This document shows positions 19,878-34,079 of a DNA stretch of 64,000 nucleotides, one piece after another. The DNA is from Candidatus Woesearchaeota archaeon (GTDB lineage: Archaea > Nanobdellota > Nanobdellia > Woesearchaeales > GW2011-AR15). Made by a program: the position numbers and the translations under genes. The notes under the pieces are model-generated. The model saw only the letters and a program-made list of their open reading frames with translations. It was not told the DNA's origin and searched no databases. Numbering within the stretch: position 1 is the stretch's first letter; each line of letters starts with the position of its first letter. The DNA lies in the NCBI GenBank assembly GCA_038874655.1, contig JAVZBY010000004.1:18645-82644 (forward strand), read 5' to 3'.

Positions 19878-20112
19878 TAATATATTAGTAAAATAATAGT
19901 ATTTATATTTTTTATTAAAGATAAGAAAATCTTAATTAAAAGTTCAAATATAACAAAAAATAAAAACTCTTCAATTTAAATAAAAAAATAAATTAAAAAA
20001 GACAAAAGCATCACAATAAAAACATATATTTCAATAAAAAAGCATATATTTAAATATTTAAACTACAATTTAAAATTTGATTATTTTTAATTTAAGTTAT
20101 AGAGGTGTAAAA

Positions 20113-20529
20113 ATGAAACACTTTTTTAACAAAATAAAAGAAAAAGTTAAAAAATGGGGCTTTGATGACGAAGCTAATGAAGATGTTGAAGAAGAATATT
20201 TAGAATTAGATGCTGCTGTTAAAAAATCTGCATCACAAAAGATTATAGTAAGACCTTTTGTTTTAGATGATTTCTCAGATGTAAAAGAAGTTGTTGATAC
20301 AATAAGAGAAGGTTATTCTATTGCTTTAGTAAATATAAAAGCTTTAAGAGAAAAAGACATGGTTGAATTAAGAAGAGCAATAAACAAATTAAAGAAAACA
20401 TGCGATGCAATTGGCGGTGATATTGCAGGATTTGGAGAAGATTATATTGTAGTAACCCCAAGTTTTGCAGAAATATATAGAACAAAAGAAAATCAAACAT
20501 CAGAAGTTAAAGAAGAAAAAGAAGAATAA
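20113..20529 (+). CDS. sepF: Cell division protein SepF (archaeal DUF552)
   Basis: IREGYSIALVNI; GGDIAGFGEDYIVVTP; GAGGTG SD before ATG 20113. Confidence 0.9.
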   Translation: MKHFFNKIKEKVKKWGFDDEANEDVEEEYLELDAAVKKSASQKIIVRPFVLDDFSDVKEVVDTIREGYSIALVNIKALREKDMVELRRAINKLKKTCDAIGGDIAGFGEDYIVVTPSFAEIYRTKENQTSEVKEEKEE

Positions 20530-22211: not shown

Positions 22212-23003
22212 TTAATTTTTTAGTTTATTTTCAACTAACTTTATTTCAATATCCCCAAACTGAACCTCTTGTAATAAATCAATTTTTCTTTGAAAATCCA
22301 AATGCAATAAAGGAATAAAAGTAAATACTTTTTCCTCTTTTGTATTATCTGGTAATAAATGCTCAAATTTTAATTTTGCCTCTTTATTATTTTTTTTGAA
22401 AAAAGAAATGATCTTATTATATACATCTTTTATAACTAAGCTAATATCTCTCGGTTTTTCAGGAGCTTTTACTTCAGGCTGATTCACAATTTTAGCAGGT
22501 CTTCTTTGATAAACTTCTAAAGCCTTTTCTAATGCCTTAACTAAATCAAAAACACTTACTTTTCTTTTTCTTGGCTGAGGTGTTCTTGGATACAATGTTG
22601 GTTTTTCACTTAATTCATTAAAATTATAACTACTTATATCAATAGCACCATTCTCATAATTAACCAATTCTTCAAAAGGAACCTCATCATTAGAATTTGC
22701 ACTTGCTATTAAAGCATCTAACGCACTAATATCCTCTTCTAAAAACCTATATGACTTAACTCTTAGCATTATTGCTGCAGCCAATAAAACTTTTCCAGAA
22801 ATCTTTAAATCCATTTCTTTTAATTTTTTTAATCTCTCTAAAAACTTATTTGCCAATAAAGAAACATCAATATCCCAAGGATCCATTTTCTCAGAACTTA
22901 CTAAATCATAAATCATAGATTGCCATGTAATCTCATCATTATTAAAAAGAATATTAAAAATCTGCTCATTTGATTTTAACTCTGGATTAATGGCTTCTAA
23001 CAT
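22212..23003 (-). CDS. scpA: Segregation/condensation protein ScpA (kleisin)
   Basis: MDPWDIDV; FIPLLHL; Q..FGDI. Confidence 0.9.
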   Translation of the reverse strand: MLEAINPELKSNEQIFNILFNNDEITWQSMIYDLVSSEKMDPWDIDVSLLANKFLERLKKLKEMDLKISGKVLLAAAIMLRVKSYRFLEEDISALDALIASANSNDEVPFEELVNYENGAIDISSYNFNELSEKPTLYPRTPQPRKRKVSVFDLVKALEKALEVYQRRPAKIVNQPEVKAPEKPRDISLVIKDVYNKIISFFKKNNKEAKLKFEHLLPDNTKEEKVFTFIPLLHLDFQRKIDLLQEVQFGDIEIKLVENKLKN

Positions 23004-23125: not shown

Positions 23126-24703
23126 ATGTTAATGGCAAATTATTTTAAAAAATTTGTATCTTTTAAGATTAAAAGCAGAAATGTAAATTTATATTTTTCC
23201 ATTCCAAAAAATAGTTCTGAATTTAATGAAGACTTACTAAATAAAGAATTTGAATTTTTTAAATCCATTTTATTAAAACAGCATCCTTTTTTTCAAGATA
23301 ATAAATTTAAAAATAATTTTGACTTAGCAACTTTGCCTAGAGATAATGAAGCTGAAGAAGAAGAAAGACTATTAGCAAAGGATATTTTGCAACTAAAATT
23401 AAATTTTAAATATGTAAAAAATATAAATGAAATTAAAGCACCTTCAATAAAATATTTTGAAGAAAAAACTATCATGCTTTTAGCACCTTTAATTGGACAA
23501 ATATTAAAGAGTGATAATAATGTTATTCCTGATGGAGAAGGGGATTTCACAGTAAAAGTTAAAATTGGTAAAGCTATGGATTTAGGTGAAGAAAATTTAG
23601 CTATTGTTTATGAAACGCTCTCTGATTTAGAAACCTTATATCTAGGCTTTCATTATCAATTAATTGCAAGATATCTAGTTTTTCCCTATTATCTTAGTGG
23701 TGAAAAAACATTTTTTAGTGCCTTTCCTATAAAATGTATAATACATGAGATTCAACATTATAAACAAATGACTTTTACTAATTGGGAAAGAAAAGTAAAA
23801 AATGCCATAGAAGAAAAATTTACTACTCCTTCTAAATTAAGTCCAAATTCATTATTATTATTTTGGGCCTTATGTGAATTATACAAAGAAGCTGAAGCAT
23901 ATTTCATGGATTCAAAAAAAAATCAAAGAAGAAAAATAGACATGAATTGGATCTATAATTTCAGAAAAAATTTATTCACTATGGTCTCTCTTCCCAAAAA
24001 TGAAAAAGAATTATGGGAATTTTATAACAAATATATCGATGAAAACACCTCTTTATATGTTAATGCTCTATTAATGATGGCTACAATCTCTTTTGCTGAA
24101 GCAAAAAAAGATGGTCATCCTGAACAAATAATCTTATATAAAGATGTCAATCCAGAAATAAAAAAATTAGTTAATGAAATTGAAGTTATGATAAATGTTC
24201 TTTTAAATAATAATAGTGAGAATCTAAATCTTTTAAAAAATAAGATAATTGAATTATACAAATTACTAAAACCTTACCTTCCTTATCTAATCGCTAACAA
24301 ATTAAGAGAAAATATAAATAATCTCTATAATAATAATTTAACAATAATAAAAAAAGGATGCTTAATTATTAAAAATGAAGTTTTACCTTTTTATGATAGA
24401 TTTGATTTGTCTAAATTAAATGAGATCATGACAAAAGAAAAAATATTTTATTATGGCCAAGTTCCTGAAATTTATGTTAATAGAAGTTTTAATTTTGTAA
24501 AAAATTATGTTACATCTACTGGTAAATTATCTCCTGCAACACATTTCGGTTTTATAAAGAAATATGAAGATGCATGCAACATTTTAAGAATAGACAGAAA
24601 CAATAGAGTAATTGATTTATTTTTTTATAAAGAATTAAAAAAATTGACTCTCGAAAAAGATAAAAAAATGTCAGAACAAAAAGAGGCATATTTATTAGGA
24701 TAA
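23126..24703 (+). CDS. Hypothetical protein with zincin HExxH motif
   Basis: IIHEIQH followed by a downstream ELYKEAEA possible third ligand. Confidence 0.6.
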   Translation: MLMANYFKKFVSFKIKSRNVNLYFSIPKNSSEFNEDLLNKEFEFFKSILLKQHPFFQDNKFKNNFDLATLPRDNEAEEEERLLAKDILQLKLNFKYVKNINEIKAPSIKYFEEKTIMLLAPLIGQILKSDNNVIPDGEGDFTVKVKIGKAMDLGEENLAIVYETLSDLETLYLGFHYQLIARYLVFPYYLSGEKTFFSAFPIKCIIHEIQHYKQMTFTNWERKVKNAIEEKFTTPSKLSPNSLLLFWALCELYKEAEAYFMDSKKNQRRKIDMNWIYNFRKNLFTMVSLPKNEKELWEFYNKYIDENTSLYVNALLMMATISFAEAKKDGHPEQIILYKDVNPEIKKLVNEIEVMINVLLNNNSENLNLLKNKIIELYKLLKPYLPYLIANKLRENINNLYNNNLTIIKKGCLIIKNEVLPFYDRFDLSKLNEIMTKEKIFYYGQVPEIYVNRSFNFVKNYVTSTGKLSPATHFGFIKKYEDACNILRIDRNNRVIDLFFYKELKKLTLEKDKKMSEQKEAYLLG

Positions 24704-24736: not shown

Positions 24737-26113
24737 TTAATTTTTTAGTTCATCTTCAAATATCTTATATAATCTCTTCTTGAATTTCAAAGGTATTGTT
24801 CTAGAATCATGAATTCCGTAATATTTCTTTTTTAATTCCTCTGCTCTTGGTTCTACACTTTTTAATAATTCTCTTTTAAATTTATCTATTAGTTCTCCTT
24901 TAAAACCATTCTTATAAGCCAAGTAAAATGCATATAATTGCTCTTCTGAACCACAACCTGAAGCATCATAACCGACAGAACAACCTTCTTTTTTTTCAAC
25001 ACCAAAACAAGAAAATAAATGCTCGTTTTCTTTAACTAACATGTCAGTCCTAAACCCAATACTTTTCGGATCTAGATTATTAGCTAACATAAAAATATAA
25101 ATTCTAGCACACTTAGAGCAATGCTCACACCAATAATGCTTTTTTCCATATTCATTTTCATCTGGAAAACAAGACATTTGATATTTACCAATTTCTTTAT
25201 ATCTCTTGTGAAGAATTTTCATAATAGCTAACTCATACAAAGGTTCAATAAAACTTGACACATTCATTCCTGTTAATAAAAAAGCCATATTATCCATTTC
25301 TTTTACCCAAAAACTTGTTTGATCATATACAGGATAACTTAAATATCCATCTTTATTAATATAAGTATCATCGCAACTTTTTTCATCACCAAATAAAATA
25401 TATTTTGCTTTTTCATAATAAGCTATGGGCATTATATCAAAGAAAAGTTCTGTCATTAAATGACCATATCCTAACTCTGTTCTAGGTAATTTCCAAAACC
25501 TATAATCATGAATTACACCTGTACTATTTTCAAAAGTATAAACCTTGACATTAAATTCTTTGGAAAATTTTTTAATTAATTCCTTTTTATATTCATTTTC
25601 TAATTTAACTGCATTATCTAACATAAAAACAGGAATTGGCTCTAAACCTAATTCTTTTGCTAGTGCAAATGTCAATAAACTATCTTTACCAAAAGACATA
25701 TTTACTATTACTTTTTCTTTCAGATCAATCTTTTCTTTTGGATACTTTATTTCATAATTAGCAAAAGAAACCTTCAAATTCAAAAAATTTTTAATTTGTA
25801 ATTCTGTTGAAACATTATCTACATCAGCACAAAAACTTAAATTGTTTAAATGTGCATTAAATATTTGTTGTTTAAATAAAGGATAAGAAGTTTTAAATTC
25901 AATCTCTTTTAAATTTGAATTAGAAAATTTCCAATTTTGACTTAACATCTGTGGTAAGTGCAAAACTTTTAGATATGCATAATTATCAATAAAAATATCT
26001 TTGAGATATTCTGGATAATTATCCCATATATCTTTAGAATAAACTAAAAAAAAATCTTTTTCATCTATTGTTAATTTTAAACCATTATCTGTTTTTTTAC
26101 AATCAACTTTCAT
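24737..26113 (-). CDS. MurL-like PP-loop ATPase (paralog 1)
   Basis: SFGKDS PP-loop; GDEKS; SFIEPLYEL; YQMSC; WCEHCSKC; motif order matches MurL (GGKDS, SNERS, SLLRPLSEL, SSC, WCxxCPKC). Confidence 0.7.
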   Translation of the reverse strand: MKVDCKKTDNGLKLTIDEKDFFLVYSKDIWDNYPEYLKDIFIDNYAYLKVLHLPQMLSQNWKFSNSNLKEIEFKTSYPLFKQQIFNAHLNNLSFCADVDNVSTELQIKNFLNLKVSFANYEIKYPKEKIDLKEKVIVNMSFGKDSLLTFALAKELGLEPIPVFMLDNAVKLENEYKKELIKKFSKEFNVKVYTFENSTGVIHDYRFWKLPRTELGYGHLMTELFFDIMPIAYYEKAKYILFGDEKSCDDTYINKDGYLSYPVYDQTSFWVKEMDNMAFLLTGMNVSSFIEPLYELAIMKILHKRYKEIGKYQMSCFPDENEYGKKHYWCEHCSKCARIYIFMLANNLDPKSIGFRTDMLVKENEHLFSCFGVEKKEGCSVGYDASGCGSEEQLYAFYLAYKNGFKGELIDKFKRELLKSVEPRAEELKKKYYGIHDSRTIPLKFKKRLYKIFEDELKN

Positions 26114-26175
26114 TTTCACAACACTCTATACATTGCTTATCTTTATCATTATTTTTATTTCTTAAATTCTAATTA

Positions 26176-27258
26176 CTACCTTCTCAACAAATTATCATTT
26201 CTTAACTCAGCACTTAATTCTTTTAATAATCCATATCTTTTCATTGCTTCATATAGAATGCTTAAAATAATATCATCATAACTCATTCCTGCTGTAAAAC
26301 ATGCTTTTGGAAATCTTGAATTTTCCAAAGGATCTGGCATCAATCCAGGCAATGCATTAATCTCTAAAACATTCGGAATTCCATTTTTATCCAATCTTAT
26401 ATCTAATCTTGCTAAATCCACACATCCTAAAACTTTAAATGTTTTCAAAGAAACAGCTTTTATCATTCTTTCTAATTCTTTTGAAATTTGTGCTGGACAA
26501 ACTACAGGATCAACTGGATTATTTGGATTATCCCAAATCCATTTAACCTCATAAGAATCAAACTTATTAACATGTTCTGGTAAATAATCAAAAGTCACTT
26601 CTACAATTGGCATTACTTTTGGAGGATTATTTCCCAATATTGCTACTGTAAATTCTCTACCCTCTAAATATTCTTCAACTAAAGCTTCTTGATGATAATT
26701 ATTTATAACAAATCTTAATTGTCTTCTTAATTCCTCTTCGTTCTTTACTAATGAATCATTTCTTATTCCTTTTGATGAACCTTCTGCATTTGGTTTTACA
26801 AAAAGAGGAAAATTTAACTCTGGATTTAATTTTTGATTCCAATTACTAAAAATCTGAAATTTTGGTGTTGGAACTCCATAATATTGTAAAATTTCCTTTG
26901 TTCTTCTTTTGTCCAAAGTTAAAGCTTGAGTAAAAACACCACTTCCAGTATAAGGTATTCCGAGCATATCTAAAATAGCAGGAACTTGACTTTCTCGAGA
27001 ACCTCCATTTAAACCTTCAGCTATATTAAAAACAAAATCATAATTACCATATTTAATTTTTTCAAAAAAATCTTCATTTGCCTCAACAATTTCAGCAATA
27101 AAACCCTTTTTTTCTAATGCATTTTTAATTGCAGTTGGAACTGCCAAATTATCATACTCAGCATAATAATCTTCTGGCATATTTGCAGGTGGCTCTTTTT
27201 TTAAATTAAAAGCAACTGCAATTCTTGGTATAGGGTTTTTAAAAACAAACTTTTTCAT
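26176..27258 (-). CDS. ATP-grasp ligase, D-Ala-D-Ala ligase-like family
   Basis: FNIAEG; IPYTGS; FVKPNAEGSSKGI; VEEYLEGREFTV; ARLDIR; LEINALPGL; GGAGGT SD. Confidence 0.9.
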   Translation of the reverse strand: MKKFVFKNPIPRIAVAFNLKKEPPANMPEDYYAEYDNLAVPTAIKNALEKKGFIAEIVEANEDFFEKIKYGNYDFVFNIAEGLNGGSRESQVPAILDMLGIPYTGSGVFTQALTLDKRRTKEILQYYGVPTPKFQIFSNWNQKLNPELNFPLFVKPNAEGSSKGIRNDSLVKNEEELRRQLRFVINNYHQEALVEEYLEGREFTVAILGNNPPKVMPIVEVTFDYLPEHVNKFDSYEVKWIWDNPNNPVDPVVCPAQISKELERMIKAVSLKTFKVLGCVDLARLDIRLDKNGIPNVLEINALPGLMPDPLENSRFPKACFTAGMSYDDIILSILYEAMKRYGLLKELSAELRNDNLLRR

Positions 27259-27813
27259 TTATATAGACCTCCATTTTTATTTTTTAAAAATACTTATCCT
27301 CTATTTTAGTATTATTTATAATAGCATTAATTATTAAAAAAAATCTTTTAAAATGAGAATAAAAAACAAAAAATAAAATCAAAATAATTGTAAAAAGAAA
27401 AAAAATCTCTAACAAAATAGGATTAAACCCTTTATTAAGGATACTCAATCTATCTCTAAAAAACTGATTAACAAAAAATTGACTATAAAAAAGATTTAAA
27501 TTTAATAAAATTAGAAAATTATAAAATAGACTTGAATTTAAAAATCTAGAATTTAAACTAAACTTTATCAAACCTTTTTTAAAAGAATCAATCCTGAAAG
27601 ACAAACTCAATTGCCTATTTATCATTTAGCTTTTATCACTTCCTTTTTTATTTTTATATTTTGAGTTTATCTTTGAAATTTTCACAATAGTTATATTTCA
27701 AAAAATTATTTTTAACAAAAAAATAAAAGAAAAAGTGGTATATAAATTTATTCATTTTTTTTATCACTTAGCAAAAAAAATTATTTCTTTCATTAATCTA
27801 AAATTGTAAAAAT

Positions 27814-28014
27814 TTAATACTTATCCTCATCATCTTCATAATCTTCGTAATCTTCGTCATCATAGTCTTCATCATCATAGTCTTCATCATTATAGTCTTC
27901 ATCATCATAGTCTTCATCATAATCTTCATCGCTATACTCTTCGTCATCATATTCTTCGTCATCATATTCTTCAACAAAATCTTCATCTTCATAATCTTCT
28001 TCGTGTCTAGCCAT
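27814..28014 (-). CDS. 66-aa Asp/Glu/Tyr-repeat peptide (candidate precursor or substrate)
   Basis: GGAGG SD 5 nt before ATG 28014; MARHEEDYEDEDFVEEY(DDEEY)2SDEDYDEDY(xDEDY)4EDYEDDEDKY; synonymous variation between repeat units. Confidence 0.8.
   Translation of the reverse strand: MARHEEDYEDEDFVEEYDDEEYDDEEYSDEDYDEDYDDEDYNDEDYDDEDYDDEDYEDYEDDEDKY
27850..27975. repeat. Imperfect 15-bp tandem repeat (coding strand GATGAAGACTATGAT-like) encoding xDEDY/DDEEY units
   Basis: Repeated tcatcatagtcttca units on the + strand. Confidence 0.85.
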
Positions 28015-28256
28015 TTTAACCTCCATCCACACAAATAACTGAAATTTTAGTAAAATCAAATCTATTTAAATCTTATTTTTTTTTAGAAACTAAAAAAAAT
28101 TTAAAACAAAATTTATAATTTGCAAAAAATAATTTACAAATAATTAAAAAAATAGAAACTTATTTAAAGAGAACCTTTAATAAATAATATTAAAAATATA
28201 TTTTAAAAAATAGTAAAAAAATTAAGAATAAAAATTATAATTAAAAAAATTAAAAA

Positions 28257-29654
28257 ATGGATGAGCTTTCTATAAAATACAGCATATCAAAAAAAGGATT
28301 TAATGTAAGAATAAATAATAAAACCTATTCAATAAAATATCCGCAAATAATTTGGGAAACTTTCCCAAAAAAAATTAAAAAAATAACAATTGAAAATTTT
28401 GTTTTTTTAACTACATTTACATTACCAATGCTCTTAAATAAAAGAAAAGCATTTTTTCACATGAATTCTCCTTTATTAGGAAGTTTTTTTGTTAAACCAA
28501 TTTTATATTATATCCCTGCATGTGCTGATGAATATAACAGAGATAGCTTTACATTACTAAAAAGGTTTATAAACTCCACTTATGATTTTAAATCTTATAA
28601 CCCAACTTTTTTTGATTATAATCCTAAAGTTAATTACAGAAGTGTTCATTTATTCACATTTGGAAAAGATAGCTTGCTTTCTTATTGCTTAGCAGAAGAA
28701 TTGAAATTAAATCCTATTTTATTATATGTCGAAGAGCCTGACACAGCATATAAAGATAAAAATGGAAAAATAAAAAAAACATATGAAAACAAGCACAAAG
28801 ACATATTAATAAAAAAATTTAGTGAAGAATTTAAAAAACCTATTTATAAGATAAAACATCAATTAAGCTTAACAAGAGAAGCTCCTCACTTAGGTGTTGA
28901 TGAACCTGAATTACCTTATGGCTCTCAATTAACTGAATATGCTCTATTAACTATTCCCTTTAACCATTACTTTAAAGCAAAATACATGGTATATGGGAAT
29001 GAAGCAAGCTGTTCAAGTACTTATGTAAATAAAGAAGGCTTTATAACAAACCCTGTTTATGATCAATCCGGTGAATGGGTAGTTGAAATTTCTAAGGTTT
29101 TGAAAGTATTGACAAAAAAAATGTCAGCAATTTCTTTAATAGAACCAATCCATGAATTATTAATCACAAAAATTTTACACACTAGATATCCAAAGCATGC
29201 TAAATATCAGATGTCTTGTATGGCAGCAAACAATTATGCAAAATATTCAAGATGGTGTCATAATTGTTCAAAATGCGCTAGAATGTATGTTTTTTTAAAA
29301 GCATTTAATATTGATGTTAAATCCGTAGGTTTTAAAGAAGATATGTTCAAAAAAGAAAAAATGCATTTTTACACTTTATTTGGTAAACCTGAAGAAAATG
29401 CATTACCTTATGATTTAGCAGGAGTTGGCAGAGATGAAATGTTATTAGCTTTTTATTTATCTTACAAAAATGGTTCAAAAGGTTATTTGATTAAAGAATT
29501 TGAAAGAAAATTTTTAAAAGAAGCTGAACAAAGAAAAAATGAACTTTATAAAGAATTTTTCAGCATTCATGAATCTTTAACAATACCAAAAAGAATGCAC
29601 AAAAAAATAATTAACATATTTAAAGAAGAAATAGAAAAACTAAATTTACCATAA
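28257..29654 (+). CDS. MurL-like PP-loop ATPase (paralog 2)
   Basis: TFGKDS; GNEASC; NPVYDQS; SLIEPIHEL; YQMSC; RWCHNCSKC; PYDLAGVGRDE; collinear with paralog 1. Confidence 0.7.
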   Translation: MDELSIKYSISKKGFNVRINNKTYSIKYPQIIWETFPKKIKKITIENFVFLTTFTLPMLLNKRKAFFHMNSPLLGSFFVKPILYYIPACADEYNRDSFTLLKRFINSTYDFKSYNPTFFDYNPKVNYRSVHLFTFGKDSLLSYCLAEELKLNPILLYVEEPDTAYKDKNGKIKKTYENKHKDILIKKFSEEFKKPIYKIKHQLSLTREAPHLGVDEPELPYGSQLTEYALLTIPFNHYFKAKYMVYGNEASCSSTYVNKEGFITNPVYDQSGEWVVEISKVLKVLTKKMSAISLIEPIHELLITKILHTRYPKHAKYQMSCMAANNYAKYSRWCHNCSKCARMYVFLKAFNIDVKSVGFKEDMFKKEKMHFYTLFGKPEENALPYDLAGVGRDEMLLAFYLSYKNGSKGYLIKEFERKFLKEAEQRKNELYKEFFSIHESLTIPKRMHKKIINIFKEEIEKLNLP

Positions 29655-29747: not shown

Positions 29748-30761
29748 ATGAAATTAATCAAAGTAAAAGGGACTAATTATCAAATTGGTTATAAATTAGG
29801 CCACATATTTTCCTCTGCAATAAAATATAGAATAAAAAAATTTAAAATAACTAAAAGATTAATTGATTCTAAAAAAGATTATTTAGAAAAAACTTTAAAA
29901 CTCTGTGAAATATACCCTAATTACTTACTTGAATTAAAAGGAATTTCTGATGGCTCTAATACAAATATTTATGAAATTTTAATGCTTAATTTACTAGGAT
30001 TACTTGATATAAAAAGATGTAGCACAATAGCATATAAAGGAAAAAATAGTTTTATTGCTCATAATGAAGATGGGGACACTTTTGAAAGAAAAAAAGATTT
30101 TGCATTAATAAAATATGAAAAAATAATTAATGAAATAGAATACAAAAATAAAAATAATAAAAAAAACAAAAAATTTTATTTTTACTCATACTTTTATCCT
30201 GGTGAACTTTTAGGAGCAACATTTTCATGGAATTCTTATGGTTTAATAATAACTGTTAATTCAATAAGGTCTAGATTAAGCAATATTCCAAAACTGCCAA
30301 GAGTTTTTGTAGCAAGAGCACTATTAGAAGCAAAAACAATAAATCAAGCAATTAAAATAATAAAAAATTCAAAAAGCTCTGGTGGCTTGCATTATCTTAT
30401 AATGAAAAAAACAAATAAAAAATCAAACAATGTAAAAGAAATAGTTTCAATAGAAAGATATCAGAATTCTACTAGTATTGAAAAAATAAATAACATTTAT
30501 ATTCATACTAATCACTATATTCACAAAAAATTTCTAAATAAAACAAAGCCACATAAAAATTCTGTAATAAGATATGAAAGATTAAAAGAATTAATAGAAC
30601 TGCATAGAGATAAAATAATAAATGCAGATAAAGAAATTCTTTTAAAAATTATGAGAGATAGAAAAACAAAGCCAAACTCAATATACAACAAAAAAAATGA
30701 TACCAATCAAACTCTTGCTACTTTTATAGCTTTGAAAAATAAAAAATATGTATTTTTATAA
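29748..30761 (+). CDS. C45 family Ntn-hydrolase/acyltransferase
   Basis: G..YQIGYKLG; ELKGISDG; R-CST nucleophile; AHNED; HTNHY; SVIRYERL. Confidence 0.88.
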   Translation: MKLIKVKGTNYQIGYKLGHIFSSAIKYRIKKFKITKRLIDSKKDYLEKTLKLCEIYPNYLLELKGISDGSNTNIYEILMLNLLGLLDIKRCSTIAYKGKNSFIAHNEDGDTFERKKDFALIKYEKIINEIEYKNKNNKKNKKFYFYSYFYPGELLGATFSWNSYGLIITVNSIRSRLSNIPKLPRVFVARALLEAKTINQAIKIIKNSKSSGGLHYLIMKKTNKKSNNVKEIVSIERYQNSTSIEKINNIYIHTNHYIHKKFLNKTKPHKNSVIRYERLKELIELHRDKIINADKEILLKIMRDRKTKPNSIYNKKNDTNQTLATFIALKNKKYVFL

Positions 30762-33281: not shown

Positions 33282-33360
33282 AAAACCTATTTATAAAATT
33301 AACCACTTTATAGTAGTTTTAAAACTATTTATAGTATTTTTAAAAGTTTGAAAGTTAAAA

Positions 33361-33433
33361 TGGGCCCGCCCAGACTCGAACTGGGGACCTACTCCGTGTA
33401 AGGGAGTTGTCATAGCCACTAGACCACGAGCCC
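33361..33433 (-). tRNA. tRNA-Val(TAC)
   Basis: GGGCTCG...ACTCC CTTACAC GGAGT...CCCAG TTCGAGT CTGGG CGGGCCC A cloverleaf. Confidence 0.95.
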
Positions 33434-33473
33434 AAAACTAAAAAAATTAAAAAATAAAATAATAAAAACATAT

Positions 33474-34067
33474 CTAAATTTGGTTTTGTTTATTTAATTT
33501 AGAGTTATTTGCATTTCTACTAGGTCTTATTTTTTCTGCTCCTTTTCCTTTATTTCTTAAACCTCTTGATTTTTTTGCTGATGAAGTTAATCCACGATAA
33601 ACTCTACCTTTATTAGCTGGATTTTTTAACCATTCAAAATAATGTCTTGATAAAACCTCTGGATGATTTCTATCTACCATAATAATTTCATACCAAAGAT
33701 ATCTACCATCCTCTCCAACCCAATAAGAATTTAAAACCTCGCAATTGGGATATTTTTTATTTGCTCTTTGTTCTGCAACTGTTTGATAATTCATCTCTAA
33801 AATTTTTCTTTGTCTTTGTGTTTTAGGTCTTCTTGCTTTTCTTATTGTTGGTCTCATTCGACCTCCTCTAGAAACTCTTTGCCTAACAATAAAAACTCCT
33901 TGAATTGCTTTATAACCTAATTCTCTTGCCTTATCTATTCTTGTTGGTTTTTCAATCCTGACTGTTACAGGTTCATTTCTCCATTGTATTAATCTTTGTT
34001 TCCAGAGCTCAGAAAGATTTTCTCTAGGTTTTTTCCACAAATTTTTCACATATTTATATAAACCCAT
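33474..34067 (-). CDS. rpl15e: 50S ribosomal protein eL15
   Basis: PTRIDKARELGYKA; EVLNSYWVGEDG; RGLTSS; ATG 34067 after GAAGGTGA. Confidence 0.97.
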   Translation of the reverse strand: MGLYKYVKNLWKKPRENLSELWKQRLIQWRNEPVTVRIEKPTRIDKARELGYKAIQGVFIVRQRVSRGGRMRPTIRKARRPKTQRQRKILEMNYQTVAEQRANKKYPNCEVLNSYWVGEDGRYLWYEIIMVDRNHPEVLSRHYFEWLKNPANKGRVYRGLTSSAKKSRGLRNKGKGAEKIRPSRNANNSKLNKQNQI

Positions 34068-34079
34068 TTTATTCACCTT

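What the first reader, a model, noticed from the sequence alone, without database searches (positions are those of the whole stretch)
27814..28014. 66-aa gene that is almost all Asp/Glu/Tyr pentapeptide repeats
Seen: strong GGAGG SD; 45 D/E and 12 Y residues with mostly 5-residue Tyr spacing (DDEEY, SDEDY, DDEDY, NDEDY), ending in KY. Repeat units differ at synonymous positions (GAT/GAC, GAA/GAG, TAT/TAC), which suggests selection on the protein. There is no long leader. Inference: a multi-core precursor or scaffold for the neighbouring ligase/epimerases. EEY-like units recall tubulin C-terminal tails, which ATP-grasp TTL/TTLL enzymes modify. Alternatives are a DNA-mimic inhibitor or a cation-binding/biomineralisation peptide.
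Basis: partly seen in the sequence, partly recalled or inferred. Interest (0 to 1): 0.78.

Follow-up and report, generated by a model that had tools for sequence, protein, structure and literature searches.

The report
Ultra-acidic mini-protein gene, not a ligase substrate
This is very probably a real gene for a tiny, disordered, extremely acidic protein of a so far unnamed family in Woesearchaeota-type archaea, and its position beside the ligase and epimerase genes looks like local gene order, not a shared pathway.

Summary
Window 27814-28014 (minus strand) encodes a 66-aa peptide with 45 Asp/Glu and 12 Tyr. It has a GGAGGT ribosome-binding site 5 nt before the ATG and is the most acidic frame in the 1.26-Mb genome.

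The main interpretation, a precursor or scaffold for the neighbouring Ddl-like ligase and MurL-like epimerases, is not supported. Similar mini-ORFs (15-66 aa, Asp/Glu with spaced Tyr/Trp/Phe, last residue Tyr or Trp, nearly always behind GGAGG-type sites) occur in about 17 of 401 genomes of the same order. Only three (G000, G004, G015) lie next to these enzymes. G011 (97% complete) has one between L15e and ScpA, and no Ddl-like or MurL-like gene was found in that genome. The window's ORF also lies between L15e and ScpA, with the enzyme genes in between.

The Ddl-like/MurL-like pair is widespread without any such ORF: 79 of 80 genome loci and 80 of 80 metagenome loci lack one.

Best reading: an unannotated family of free-standing polyanionic proteins. 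They probably bind basic, nucleic-acid-binding proteins through their acidic-aromatic units and C-terminal aromatic residue. That function is inferred, not shown. No expression data could be obtained.

The parts
27814..28014 (-). 66-aa ultra-acidic ORF (45 D/E, 12 Tyr, ends KY), including the stop codon
   Evidence: It is unique in the genome by acidity. The Atlas's own model has pLDDT 0.22, i.e. disordered.
28019..28024 (-). Shine-Dalgarno-like GGAGGT, 4-5 nt upstream of the ATG
   Evidence: The same GGAGG motif precedes all 6 acidic mini-ORFs of the family-level relatives and an SD-like motif precedes 12 of 13 in the wider set. In this genome an SD-like motif precedes 156 of 728 long ORFs.
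27773..27812 (-). T5 (1 nt after the stop) and T8 (34 nt after the stop) on the coding strand; a possible archaeal oligo-T terminator
   Evidence: Read directly. Weak evidence, because the spacer is about 17% GC.
27284..27625 (-). 113-aa F/L/I/N-rich ORF in the spacer between the acidic ORF and the ligase gene; probably not a gene
   Evidence: GC is 0.165-0.185, like intergenic DNA. No Pfam hit. No tblastn hit in relatives' loci, although the same-genus contigs hold under 250 nt upstream of Ddl.
26176..27258 (-). Context, not part of the feature: Ddl-like ATP-grasp ligase, 555 nt downstream of the acidic ORF
   Evidence: Pfam Dala_Dala_lig_C E 6.9e-38. NCBIfam D-Ala-D-Ala ligase subfamily 199.7 bits, below the 243 cut-off.
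24737..26119 (-). Context: distant MurL-like protein a (PP-loop SFGKDS motif, CxxCxxC)
   Evidence: NCBIfam MurL_Xanthmoales 25.2 bits against a cut-off of 700. Alignment A1.
28257..29654 (+). Context: distant MurL-like protein b, divergent from the acidic ORF
   Evidence: It is 40% identical to paralogue a.
29748..30761 (+). Context: C45-family Ntn hydrolase/acyltransferase
33474..34076 (-). Positional anchor: ribosomal protein L15e. In G011 it lies directly upstream of the acidic ORF.
   Evidence: Pfam Ribosomal_L15e E 1e-67. G011 order is L15e - acidic ORF - ScpA.
22212..23003 (-). Positional anchor: ScpA. In G011 it lies 120 nt downstream of the acidic ORF.
   Evidence: tblastn finds 67% identity to the G011 gene next to that genome's acidic ORF.

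Best explanation
The ORF is a real, efficiently translated gene for a 66-aa intrinsically disordered polyanion. It belongs to an unannotated family of acidic mini-proteins in this archaeal order (record titles of relatives read Woesearchaeota/Nanoarchaeota). Members are 15-66 aa long. They start at an ATG behind a GGAGG-type ribosome-binding site, consist of Asp/Glu runs punctuated by Tyr/Trp/Phe, and end in Tyr or Trp directly before the stop codon. Length varies by gain and loss of short D/E-aromatic units; the window's copy is the longest seen, with about ten 15-nt units.

The gene sits in a housekeeping neighbourhood (L15e ... ScpA-TFS-Nre). Its position next to the Ddl-like and MurL-like genes reflects local gene order, not a shared pathway.

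Inferred mechanism, not shown: it acts in trans as a nucleic-acid-like polyanion. It would dock on basic surfaces of DNA- or RNA-binding proteins through its acidic-aromatic units and its C-terminal aromatic carboxylate. This is how the acidic tails of SSB, T7 gp2.5, the RNA polymerase delta subunit or DSS1 work (recalled knowledge). The effect would be to chaperone such proteins or compete with them.

My odds by step: real gene about 0.85; family independent of the ligase/epimerase genes about 0.75; the stated mechanism about 0.3.
For: Coding:
- The frame is open with an ATG 5 nt after GGAGGT.
- GGAGG precedes 6 of 6 family-level homologues, and an SD-like motif precedes 12 of 13 in the wider set. 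No search pattern included that motif.
- GC is coding-like inside an AT-rich spacer.
- The mRNA folds worse than all 100 shuffles.
- The close pair G357/G143 is 93% identical in the ORF with all 6 differences at third positions, against 69% identity in both flanks. The pair G218/G140 is 94% identical in the ORF against 87-89% in the flanks.

A family independent of the enzymes:
- A composition scan and the Tyr-spacing pattern found small acidic ORFs in G004, G015 and G118. All end in W or Y, although that was not required by the search.
- The tail pattern found 7 matches in 6 of 20 family genomes (1 control match), 6 of them mini-ORFs. At order level it gave 40 matches in 37 of 401 genomes against about 20 control matches. 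By my count, 24 of the 40 end in Y or W plus a stop, and about 17 are small acidic ORFs.
- G011 has no MurL-like or Ddl-like match. G012 has only weak partial matches, and G118 has none.
- None of the 17 loci L280-L296 has a Ddl-, MurL- or KamA-like hit.
- Only 1 of 80 MurL-like genome loci (L044, the G015 contig) and 0 of 80 Ddl-like metagenome loci hold such an ORF.

Position:
- G011 reads L15e - acidic ORF - ScpA.
- The window has L15e, the acidic ORF and ScpA on one strand in that order, with other genes in between.
- In G311 the ORF is next to TFS, and in G379 next to Nre.

Disorder: Atlas model pLDDT 0.22. Its structural neighbours include proteins with SSB, Rpb6/omega and delta-factor labels, all under that tool's bar.
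Against: - There is no evidence of transcription or translation.
- Homology among the mini-ORFs cannot be shown by alignment statistics, because they are low-complexity. HMMER-based searches return nothing even for known relatives.
- The tail pattern required an acidic tail and Y/W/C before a stop. The terminal aromatic residue is therefore partly built into that set; only 4 ORFs were found without that requirement.
- The order-level signal is only about twice the control count.
- Adjacency to a Ddl-type ligase recurs in 3 of the 5 family-level mini-ORFs whose downstream side is visible. That is more than chance if the loci were independent. A local functional link therefore remains possible.
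- G012 is a 190-contig bin, and one of its acidic ORFs lies 145 nt from a contig end, so its lack of the enzymes is weak evidence.
- No binding partner is identified. Neighbours differ between families (ribosomal proteins, TFS, Nre, Rpo6, CorA, D-aminoacyl-tRNA deacylase, thiolase).
- No bacterial-type SSB was found in 5 genomes. Archaeal RPA was not examined.
Confidence: 0.4

Rival explanations
1. Carrier, scaffold or substrate of the neighbouring enzymes, in this family of genomes only. The Ddl-like ligase would add an amino acid to the C-terminal Tyr/Trp carboxylate or to a side chain. The MurL-like enzyme would epimerise the new C-terminal residue by adenylation. An Ntn hydrolase (C45 here, S58 in G015) would release a product. 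This would work like LysW/LysX or like tubulin tyrosination.
For: - An acidic mini-ORF lies 300-600 nt upstream of, and co-oriented with, a Ddl-type ligase followed by a MurL-like gene in three genera: G000, G004 and G015.
- In the 20 family genomes the Tyr-spacing pattern found small ORFs only at these three loci.
- MurL acts on the C-terminal residue of a peptide with ATP (PMC8788868, passages read).
- In G004 and G015 a 45-aa zinc-ribbon ORF directly precedes the acidic ORF, which recalls LysW's zinc ribbon plus acidic tail.
Against: - The same kind of ORF exists where the enzymes were not found (G011, G012, G118) and at 17 loci without them.
- The enzyme pair is adjacent in 57 of 80 loci from Asgard, Bathyarchaeia, CPR and Woesearchaeota, and 79 of those 80 have no acidic ORF.
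- Close Ddl orthologues (67-72% identity) in G009, G017, L122 and L123 have none upstream.
- Gaps of 300-600 nt suggest separate transcription units.
- The peptide has no Cys, and one Lys and one Ser only.
- No LysW or other family model matches it.
Confidence: 0.1
2. Divalent-cation (Mg2+/Ca2+) buffer, or part of cation homeostasis: a low-affinity, high-capacity carboxylate-rich binder.
For: - About 45 carboxylates in 66 residues.
- In G004 the HTH - Zn-ribbon - acidic ORF row directly follows CorA, a Na/Ca exchanger and a Na/H exchanger.
- In G379 a CorA gene is convergent with the acidic ORF.
Against: - Cation transporters are neighbours in only 2 of about 17 loci.
- Cation binding does not explain the spaced aromatic residues or the conserved aromatic last residue.
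- No transporter of this kind is near the ORF in the window.
Confidence: 0.15
3. A cis-acting leader peptide. Translating a long Asp/Glu run directly after the start codon would destabilise the ribosome. This could couple expression of the downstream gene to Mg2+ or to Asp/Glu/Tyr-tRNA supply, as described for mgtL and acidic nascent chains in bacteria (recalled, not read here).
For: - The acidic run starts 4-5 codons after the ATG.
- A downstream co-oriented gene follows at 12-600 nt in several genomes: Rpo6 in G364, ScpA in G011, the ligase in G000, G004 and G015.
Against: - In family f54 the acidic ORF is the last gene before a convergent MFS gene, so there is nothing downstream to regulate.
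- Downstream genes are unrelated between genomes.
- The terminal aromatic residue and the N-terminal motif are conserved in the f54 trio.
- Changes in a close pair are third-position only, which points to a selected product.
- 66 codons is far longer than known leaders.
Confidence: 0.08
4. Not a gene: a non-coding 15-nt tandem repeat, or a small RNA gene, that happens to be open in one frame.
For: - It is a tandem repeat at the DNA level.
- A second sense frame (Lys/Met-rich) and antisense frames are also open.
- There is a sub-threshold Rfam hit to the C/D-box sRNA family sR5 at 27859-27908, 26 bits against a gathering score of 40.
- The exact sequence is absent from the 15-billion-protein collection.
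Against: - Only the acidic frame has an ATG placed behind GGAGG, and this holds in 6 of 6 relatives whose DNA differs.
- The stop codon follows the aromatic codon in every case.
- Coding-type conservation is seen in close pairs.
- The sR5 hit rests on UGAUGA repeats made by Tyr-Asp-Asp codons, and the ORF contains no CUGA D box (read).
- The RNA is less structured than its shuffles.
- The ESM Atlas holds the sequence letter for letter, so one gene caller did predict it.
Confidence: 0.1

Closest known systems
Acidic C-terminal tails that end in an aromatic residue (bacterial SSB ...DDDIPF, T7 gp2.5) and polyanionic disordered proteins or regions (RNA polymerase delta C-terminal region, DSS1/Sem1, prothymosin alpha). 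All recalled from memory, not from a call.
   Same: Extreme Asp/Glu content, disorder, aromatic residues set among acidic ones, and a free aromatic C-terminus. The Atlas structural neighbours carried SSB, Rpb6/omega and delta-factor labels, all under that tool's bar.
   Different: Here the acidic stretch is the whole protein (15-66 aa), not a tail on a folded domain. It is archaeal, shows no sequence homology, and has no known partner.
LysW/ArgW amino-group carrier proteins with LysX/ArgX ATP-grasp ligases (recalled)
   Same: A small acidic protein with an aromatic residue near the C-terminus, encoded next to an ATP-grasp ligase. In G004 and G015 a zinc-ribbon ORF lies directly upstream.
   Different: There is no zinc ribbon in the same chain and no Cys at all. 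It ends in Tyr/Trp, not Glu. The ligase is Ddl-type, not RimK/LysX-type. No LysZ/Y/J/K-like genes were seen. No model hit. The family also occurs without any ligase.
Tubulin C-terminal tails and TTL/TTLL ligases
   Same: EEY-like endings and an ATP-grasp ligase nearby.
   Different: The Tyr or Trp is genetically encoded. The ligase's Pfam hits are Dala_Dala_lig_C, GARS_A and ATP-grasp_3/4, with no TTL family among them. The association is not general.
RiPP precursors modified by ATP-grasp enzymes (graspetides) or multi-core precursors (recalled)
   Same: A short peptide gene near an ATP-grasp gene, with a repeated unit.
   Different: No leader. Only one Ser and one Lys, and no Thr, to pair with Asp/Glu side chains. 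Unit number and sequence drift freely between relatives. The enzyme is absent from several genomes that carry the peptide.
Pfam PF28156 'Highly_acidic'
   Same: It is the nearest Atlas cluster that carries a Pfam family, by language-model features (score 0.76).
   Different: hmmscan gives no hit even at E up to 10 for this ORF and six relatives.

Membership tests
LysW/ArgW carrier protein | Zinc-ribbon (CxxC...CxxC) domain in the same polypeptide | tested here: not met
   The 66-aa sequence has no Cys. Zinc-ribbon ORFs in G004 and G015 are separate genes and are absent near the window's ORF.
LysW/ArgW carrier protein | Match to a curated family model | tested here: not met
   No Pfam or NCBIfam family for the peptide. 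The zinc-ribbon ORFs gave only sub-threshold generic zinc-ribbon hits.
LysW/ArgW carrier protein | Consistent pairing with its ATP-grasp ligase and downstream pathway enzymes | tested here: not met
   The ligase is adjacent in 3 genomes only. It was not found in G011 or G118, and only weak partial ATP-grasp matches were found in G012. It is absent from 17 further loci.
RiPP precursor (graspetide or multi-core) | Leader region plus core(s) with the residues the enzyme cross-links (Thr/Ser/Lys with Asp/Glu) | tested here: not met
   No leader. There is 1 Ser, 1 Lys and 0 Thr.
RiPP precursor (graspetide or multi-core) | Co-occurrence of precursor and modifying enzyme across genomes | tested here: not met
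TTL/TTLL substrate system | Neighbouring ligase belongs to the TTL family | tested here: not met
   Pfam hits of the ligase are Dala_Dala_lig_C, GARS_A, ATP-grasp_3 and ATP-grasp_4 only.
Pfam PF28156 Highly_acidic | Profile match | tested here: not met
   No hit at E up to 10.
C/D-box sRNA (Rfam RF01304 sR5) | Score at or above the gathering threshold, with C (RUGAUGA) and D (CUGA) boxes | tested here: not met
   26 bits against 40. UGAUGA is present many times, but there is no CUGA in the ORF (sequence).
D-Ala-D-Ala ligase (neighbour 26176-27258) | Pfam domain and NCBIfam subfamily cut-off | tested here: inconclusive
   PF07478 E 6.9e-38 is met. NF002378 gives 199.7 bits against a cut-off of 243, so that is not reached. 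Ddl-like fold family; substrate unknown.
MurL epimerase (neighbours 24737-26119 and 28257-29654) | NCBIfam equivalog NF041275 cut-off | tested here: not met
   25.2 and 24.8 bits against a cut-off of 700. These are distant relatives only.
Acidic mini-protein family proposed here | ATG behind a GGAGG-type site; at most about 66 aa; Asp/Glu-rich with spaced aromatic residues; last residue Tyr or Trp | tested here: met

The most novel reading that the evidence does not exclude
In this one family of Woesearchaeota-like archaea, the acidic mini-protein has been recruited as a ribosomally made carrier or substrate. The Ddl-type ligase (fused to a KamA-type aminomutase in G004 and G015) would extend its C-terminal aromatic residue. 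The MurL-like enzyme would then epimerise the new C-terminal residue with ATP. That would be an archaeal, LysW-like or tubulin-tyrosination-like system producing a D-amino-acid end on a protein.
Probability: 0.08. Interest if true: 0.85.

Novelty: new variant of a known kind. Interest (0 to 1): 0.45.

Why it matters
If the best reading is right, small-genome DPANN archaea carry a conserved microprotein that is nothing but an acidic tail. Gene callers and sequence searches both miss it: none of 10 exact sequences is in a 15-billion-protein collection, and HMMER-type searches are blind to it. It would be a simple natural model of a free-standing polyanionic regulator or chaperone of nucleic-acid-binding proteins.

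The result also has a practical lesson. Assemblies of several relatives break at or near this gene, so it is under-counted.

For the original claim, the result removes a tempting but unsupported peptide-natural-product story. It leaves a separate open question: what the widespread Ddl-like/MurL-like gene pair does in archaea.

Tried and rejected
- HMMER-type searches with the peptide found nothing beyond itself. The relatives' genomes gave only E 0.2-0.8 chance hits and missed the known G004 and G015 copies. The 5.8-billion-protein search had 620 candidates and none scored. The f54-type peptide gave none. The G004 zinc-ribbon ORF found only itself. These blanks reflect low complexity, not absence.
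- Exact look-up of 10 mini-ORFs: none is in the collection.
- Pfam and NCBIfam gave no family for any acidic ORF.
- Sequencing runs: two tries were unanswered. There are therefore no expression data and no strain comparison of repeat number.
- Complex prediction, Ddl-like alignment A2 with the 66-aa peptide: no verdict, score 0.00, controls not run. This is not evidence either way.
- PF00436 (bacterial SSB) in 5 genomes: none found. Archaeal RPA was not examined, so the idea of a tail split off from an SSB was not tested.
- ScpA upstream regions in 15 family genomes: an acidic ORF only in G011. G014 has a tRNA-like sequence between L15e and ScpA instead.
- Outside the order (34 same-class genomes) there were only marginal cases, L318 and L319.
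- The sR5 C/D-box hit was rejected.
- An acidic stretch on the opposite strand in L023 has no start codon. One acidic frame without an aromatic end in L056 was not followed up.
- Literature. Searches were for MurL; passages of PMC8788868 were read. Searches were for acidic small archaeal proteins and DNA mimics, and search 72 for Woesearchaeota Ddl; only the listings and abstract openings were seen. None described this peptide family or the archaeal Ddl-like/MurL-like pair. Supplements were not consulted.
- Genome G261 was flagged unpublished.
Full report
**What is there.** Window 27814-28014 on the minus strand translates to a 66-residue peptide, MARHEEDY...EDDEDKY. It has 26 Asp, 19 Glu, 12 Tyr and 1 Phe.
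- Split after each aromatic residue, it gives 13 units, 8 of them five residues long.
- GGAGGT lies at 28019-28024, so the GGAGG core ends 5 nt before the ATG.
- Tandem Repeats Finder sees a 15-nt period with 10.3 copies at 80% identity.
- The ORF is a GC island: 0.295 against 0.165-0.175 in the two flanking 200-nt bins of an AT-rich spacer about 1 kb long.
- In the whole 1.26-Mb genome (17 contigs, 97% complete), it is the only one of 28,311 frames with at least 80% Asp/Glu in a 20-residue window.
- T5 and T8 runs follow the stop codon.
- The 113-aa ORF at 27284-27625, between it and the ligase gene, has intergenic composition and no family. It is probably spurious.

**The organism and the neighbours.** The window carries archaeal markers: Nre and a TFS-type zinc ribbon. 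Record titles of close relatives read Candidatus Woesearchaeota or Nanoarchaeota. Genes around the ORF are:
- a Ddl-like ATP-grasp ligase at 26176-27258 (PF07478, E 6.9e-38; NCBIfam 199.7 bits, below the 243 cut-off);
- two 40%-identical paralogues at 24737-26119 and 28257-29654, which are only distant relatives of the ATP-dependent peptide epimerase MurL (25 bits against a cut-off of 700);
- a C45-family hydrolase at 29748-30761.

**Evidence for the idea.** In 16 wider loci around MurL-like genes of relatives, a composition scan found two further small acidic ORFs.
- G015: ...MDYDEEYEDYDDEEEDKYDDDEEDKW.
- G004: MAYEEEYEEYEDEEEYDSGDDDDEDDW.
- Both lie 300-600 nt upstream of, and co-oriented with, a KamA-type aminomutase fused to a Ddl-like domain, followed by a MurL-like gene.
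- Both are preceded by a homologous 45-aa zinc-ribbon ORF, 49-51% identical between the two genomes.
- A Tyr-spacing DNA pattern run over the 20 genomes of the family hit small ORFs only at these three loci. The matches in G014 and G016 lie inside 586- and 196-aa proteins.

**Evidence against the idea.**
1. The enzyme pair is far more widespread than the peptide.
   - A Ddl-like gene lies within 6 kb of the MurL-like gene in 57 of 80 loci, from Asgard archaea, Bathyarchaeia, CPR bacteria and Woesearchaeota.
   - Only one of those 80 loci (L044, the G015 contig again) has such an ORF.
   - None of 80 metagenome loci around close Ddl-like relatives (632 kb in all) has one.
   - Close Ddl orthologues (67-72% identity) with upstream sequence available in G009, G017, L122 and L123 also lack it.
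2. The peptide occurs without the enzymes.
   - A second pattern describes only the acidic tail, one Tyr/Trp/Cys codon and a stop. It gave 7 matches in 6 of the 20 family genomes, against 1 control match.
   - New mini-ORFs from that pattern are MVYYDDDEDYEEEDYDDDDDDDDDDDEDW in G011, MEYEDYDDDDDEDYDDDEDEDW in G012, and a 46-48-aa one ending DYDDEDDDW, also in G012.
   - G011 (97% complete) gave no match to the MurL-like protein or profile, or to the Ddl profile.
   - G012 (94% complete, 190 contigs) gave only weak partial hits of 23.4-30.4 bits.
   - G118 has MREWDELESYEEDYDDYDEEDEY and gave no match.
3. The same holds across the order.
   - The tail pattern matched 40 times in 37 of 401 genomes, against about 20 control matches.
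   - By my count of the listed matches, 24 end in Tyr or Trp plus a stop, and about 17 are small acidic ORFs of 15-61 aa.
   - One clearly homologous trio has a conserved N-terminus: MKKDWKKLFAMGEDD...EDW and its relatives in G302, G072 and G247.
   - None of the 17 wider loci fetched around such ORFs has a Ddl-, MurL- or KamA-like hit at E 1e-4.

**Where the gene belongs.**
- In G011 the order is Nre ... S6e, L15e, acidic ORF, ScpA. The gaps are 298 and 120 nt, and its ScpA is 67% identical to the window's.
- In the window, L15e (33474-34076), the acidic ORF and ScpA (22212-23003) lie on the same strand in the same order. An ABC transporter pair, C45 and MurL-like b sit on one side. Ddl-like, MurL-like a and a 525-aa ORF of no family sit on the other. 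TFS, Nre and SepF follow ScpA.
- In G311 the acidic ORF follows TFS (40% identity). In G379 it is divergent from Nre (42% identity).

The ORF thus keeps an old position in a housekeeping block. The enzyme genes were either inserted around it in this genus or lost in G011; I cannot tell which. Elsewhere the neighbours differ:
- a Lrp-type regulator, zinc ribbon and a 58-63-aa coiled-coil protein in G004, G015 and G012;
- CorA and two cation exchangers in G004, and CorA in G379;
- a D-aminoacyl-tRNA deacylase in the f54 trio;
- Rpo6 in G364;
- a thiolase in G012.

**Is it a gene?** No expression data could be had. The sequence evidence is nevertheless good.
- All 6 mini-ORFs of the family have GGAGG 5-10 nt before an ATG in the acidic frame. 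An SD-like motif precedes 12 of 13 in the wider set. This motif was in no search pattern. In this genome such motifs precede 156 of 728 long ORFs.
- The other open frames lack a start in that position.
- The pair G357/G143 is 93% identical in the ORF, with all 6 changes at third positions (3 synonymous; 2 Asp/Glu and 1 Leu/Phe). Both 150-nt flanks are 69% identical.
- The mRNA is less structured than all 100 shuffles.
- A sub-threshold hit to a C/D-box sRNA family comes from UGAUGA repeats made by Tyr-Asp-Asp codons. There is no D box.

One caveat: the terminal aromatic residue was required by the tail pattern. It was not required for the four ORFs found by composition or Tyr spacing, and all four end in Tyr or Trp.

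**What it does.** This part is inference.
- The peptide is predicted disordered; the Atlas's own model has pLDDT 0.22.
- It matches no Pfam or NCBIfam model, even at E up to 10.
- Its length drifts between 15 and 66 aa, so the composition and the ending are what is kept.
- Acidic runs punctuated by aromatic residues, with a free aromatic C-terminus, are how SSB and T7 gp2.5 tails, DSS1 and similar polyanions dock on basic nucleic-acid-binding surfaces (recalled knowledge).
- The neighbours are mostly information-processing genes.

I therefore commit, at about 0.3, to a trans-acting nucleic-acid-like polyanion that chaperones or competes with basic DNA- or RNA-binding proteins. Rivals are:
- a cation buffer (0.15; CorA neighbours in 2 loci);
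- a lineage-specific carrier or substrate of the ligase and epimerase (0.1);
- a cis-acting leader peptide (0.08; contradicted where nothing lies downstream);
- no gene at all (0.1).

A complex prediction of the peptide with the Ddl-like protein gave no verdict and counts for nothing.

**Novelty.** No family model, named protein or paper found here describes these mini-proteins. Polyanionic disordered proteins are a known kind.

Noticed in passing
window 24737-27258 and 28257-29654; loci L042-L121: A Ddl-like ATP-grasp gene and a distant MurL-like gene (PP-loop SFGKDS motif, CxxCxxC) are adjacent in 57 of 80 loci from Asgard archaea, Bathyarchaeia, CPR bacteria and Woesearchaeota. This suggests a widespread 'ligate, then epimerise the C-terminal residue' module of unknown substrate in organisms without murein. 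My literature searches found no description of it.
   Followed up: partly
L036 11822-13906, L023 6642-8699, L027 10530-12623, L122 4951-7047, L123 4843-7071: A KamA-type radical-SAM 2,3-aminomutase is fused to the Ddl-like domain in one 685-742-aa protein. It scores 456 bits to lysine 2,3-aminomutase and 441 bits to glutamate 2,3-aminomutase, both below their cut-offs. This hints at a beta-amino-acid-containing peptide product.
   Followed up: no
L036 14204-18455 (G004); L286 4298-5621 (G379): In G004 a Na/H exchanger, a Na/Ca exchanger, CorA, a Lrp-like regulator, a zinc ribbon and the acidic ORF lie in one row. In G379 a CorA gene is convergent with the acidic ORF.
   Followed up: partly
L280 3747-3854, L281 1952-2071, L282 4209-4331: Three 35-40-aa acidic ORFs share an N-terminus (MxK[DE]WxK..MG) and the ending EDW. 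Each lies two genes downstream of a D-aminoacyl-tRNA deacylase (PF04414). As I recall, that enzyme's classic substrates include D-Tyr-, D-Trp- and D-Asp-tRNA, which are the residues these peptides are made of.
   Followed up: no
L253/L254 1339-1524; L260 1504-1668: Acidic ORFs of 55-61 aa carry an internal AAFLRG or QAFMQG motif. From memory, this resembles the conserved C-terminal peptide of FtsZ. A SepF-like ORF lies in the window at 20077-20529; that name is my reading of its sequence, with no family search.
   Followed up: no
L287 4605-4658 and 4670-4918 (G364): A 17-aa acidic ORF (MKLFDDEWDGDDDEEEY) ends 12 nt before the Rpo6 gene (PF01192). Eukaryotic Rpb6 carries an acidic N-terminal tail (recalled).
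   Followed up: no
G118:C15, G012:C37, G012:C118, G001:C32, G002:C63, G003:C144, G006:C71: Contigs of several assemblies end at the acidic ORF, or within a few hundred bases of where it is expected. The repeat and its AT-rich spacer probably break short-read assemblies, so the gene is under-detected.
   Followed up: no
window 23126-24703 (+): A 525-aa ORF with no Pfam or NCBIfam family sits between MurL-like a and ScpA on the opposite strand. It is absent between MurL-like a and ScpA in G002.
   Followed up: no
L028 4657-5805 (G015); window 29748-30761: An Ntn-type hydrolase follows the MurL-like gene in two genomes, but of different families: peptidase S58 (DmpA-like) in G015 and C45 in the window.
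   Followed up: no
window 33360-33434 (-); L306 (G014): A tRNA-Val gene lies next to L15e in the window. In G014 the L15e-ScpA spacer holds a tRNA-like sequence that looks interrupted.
   Followed up: no
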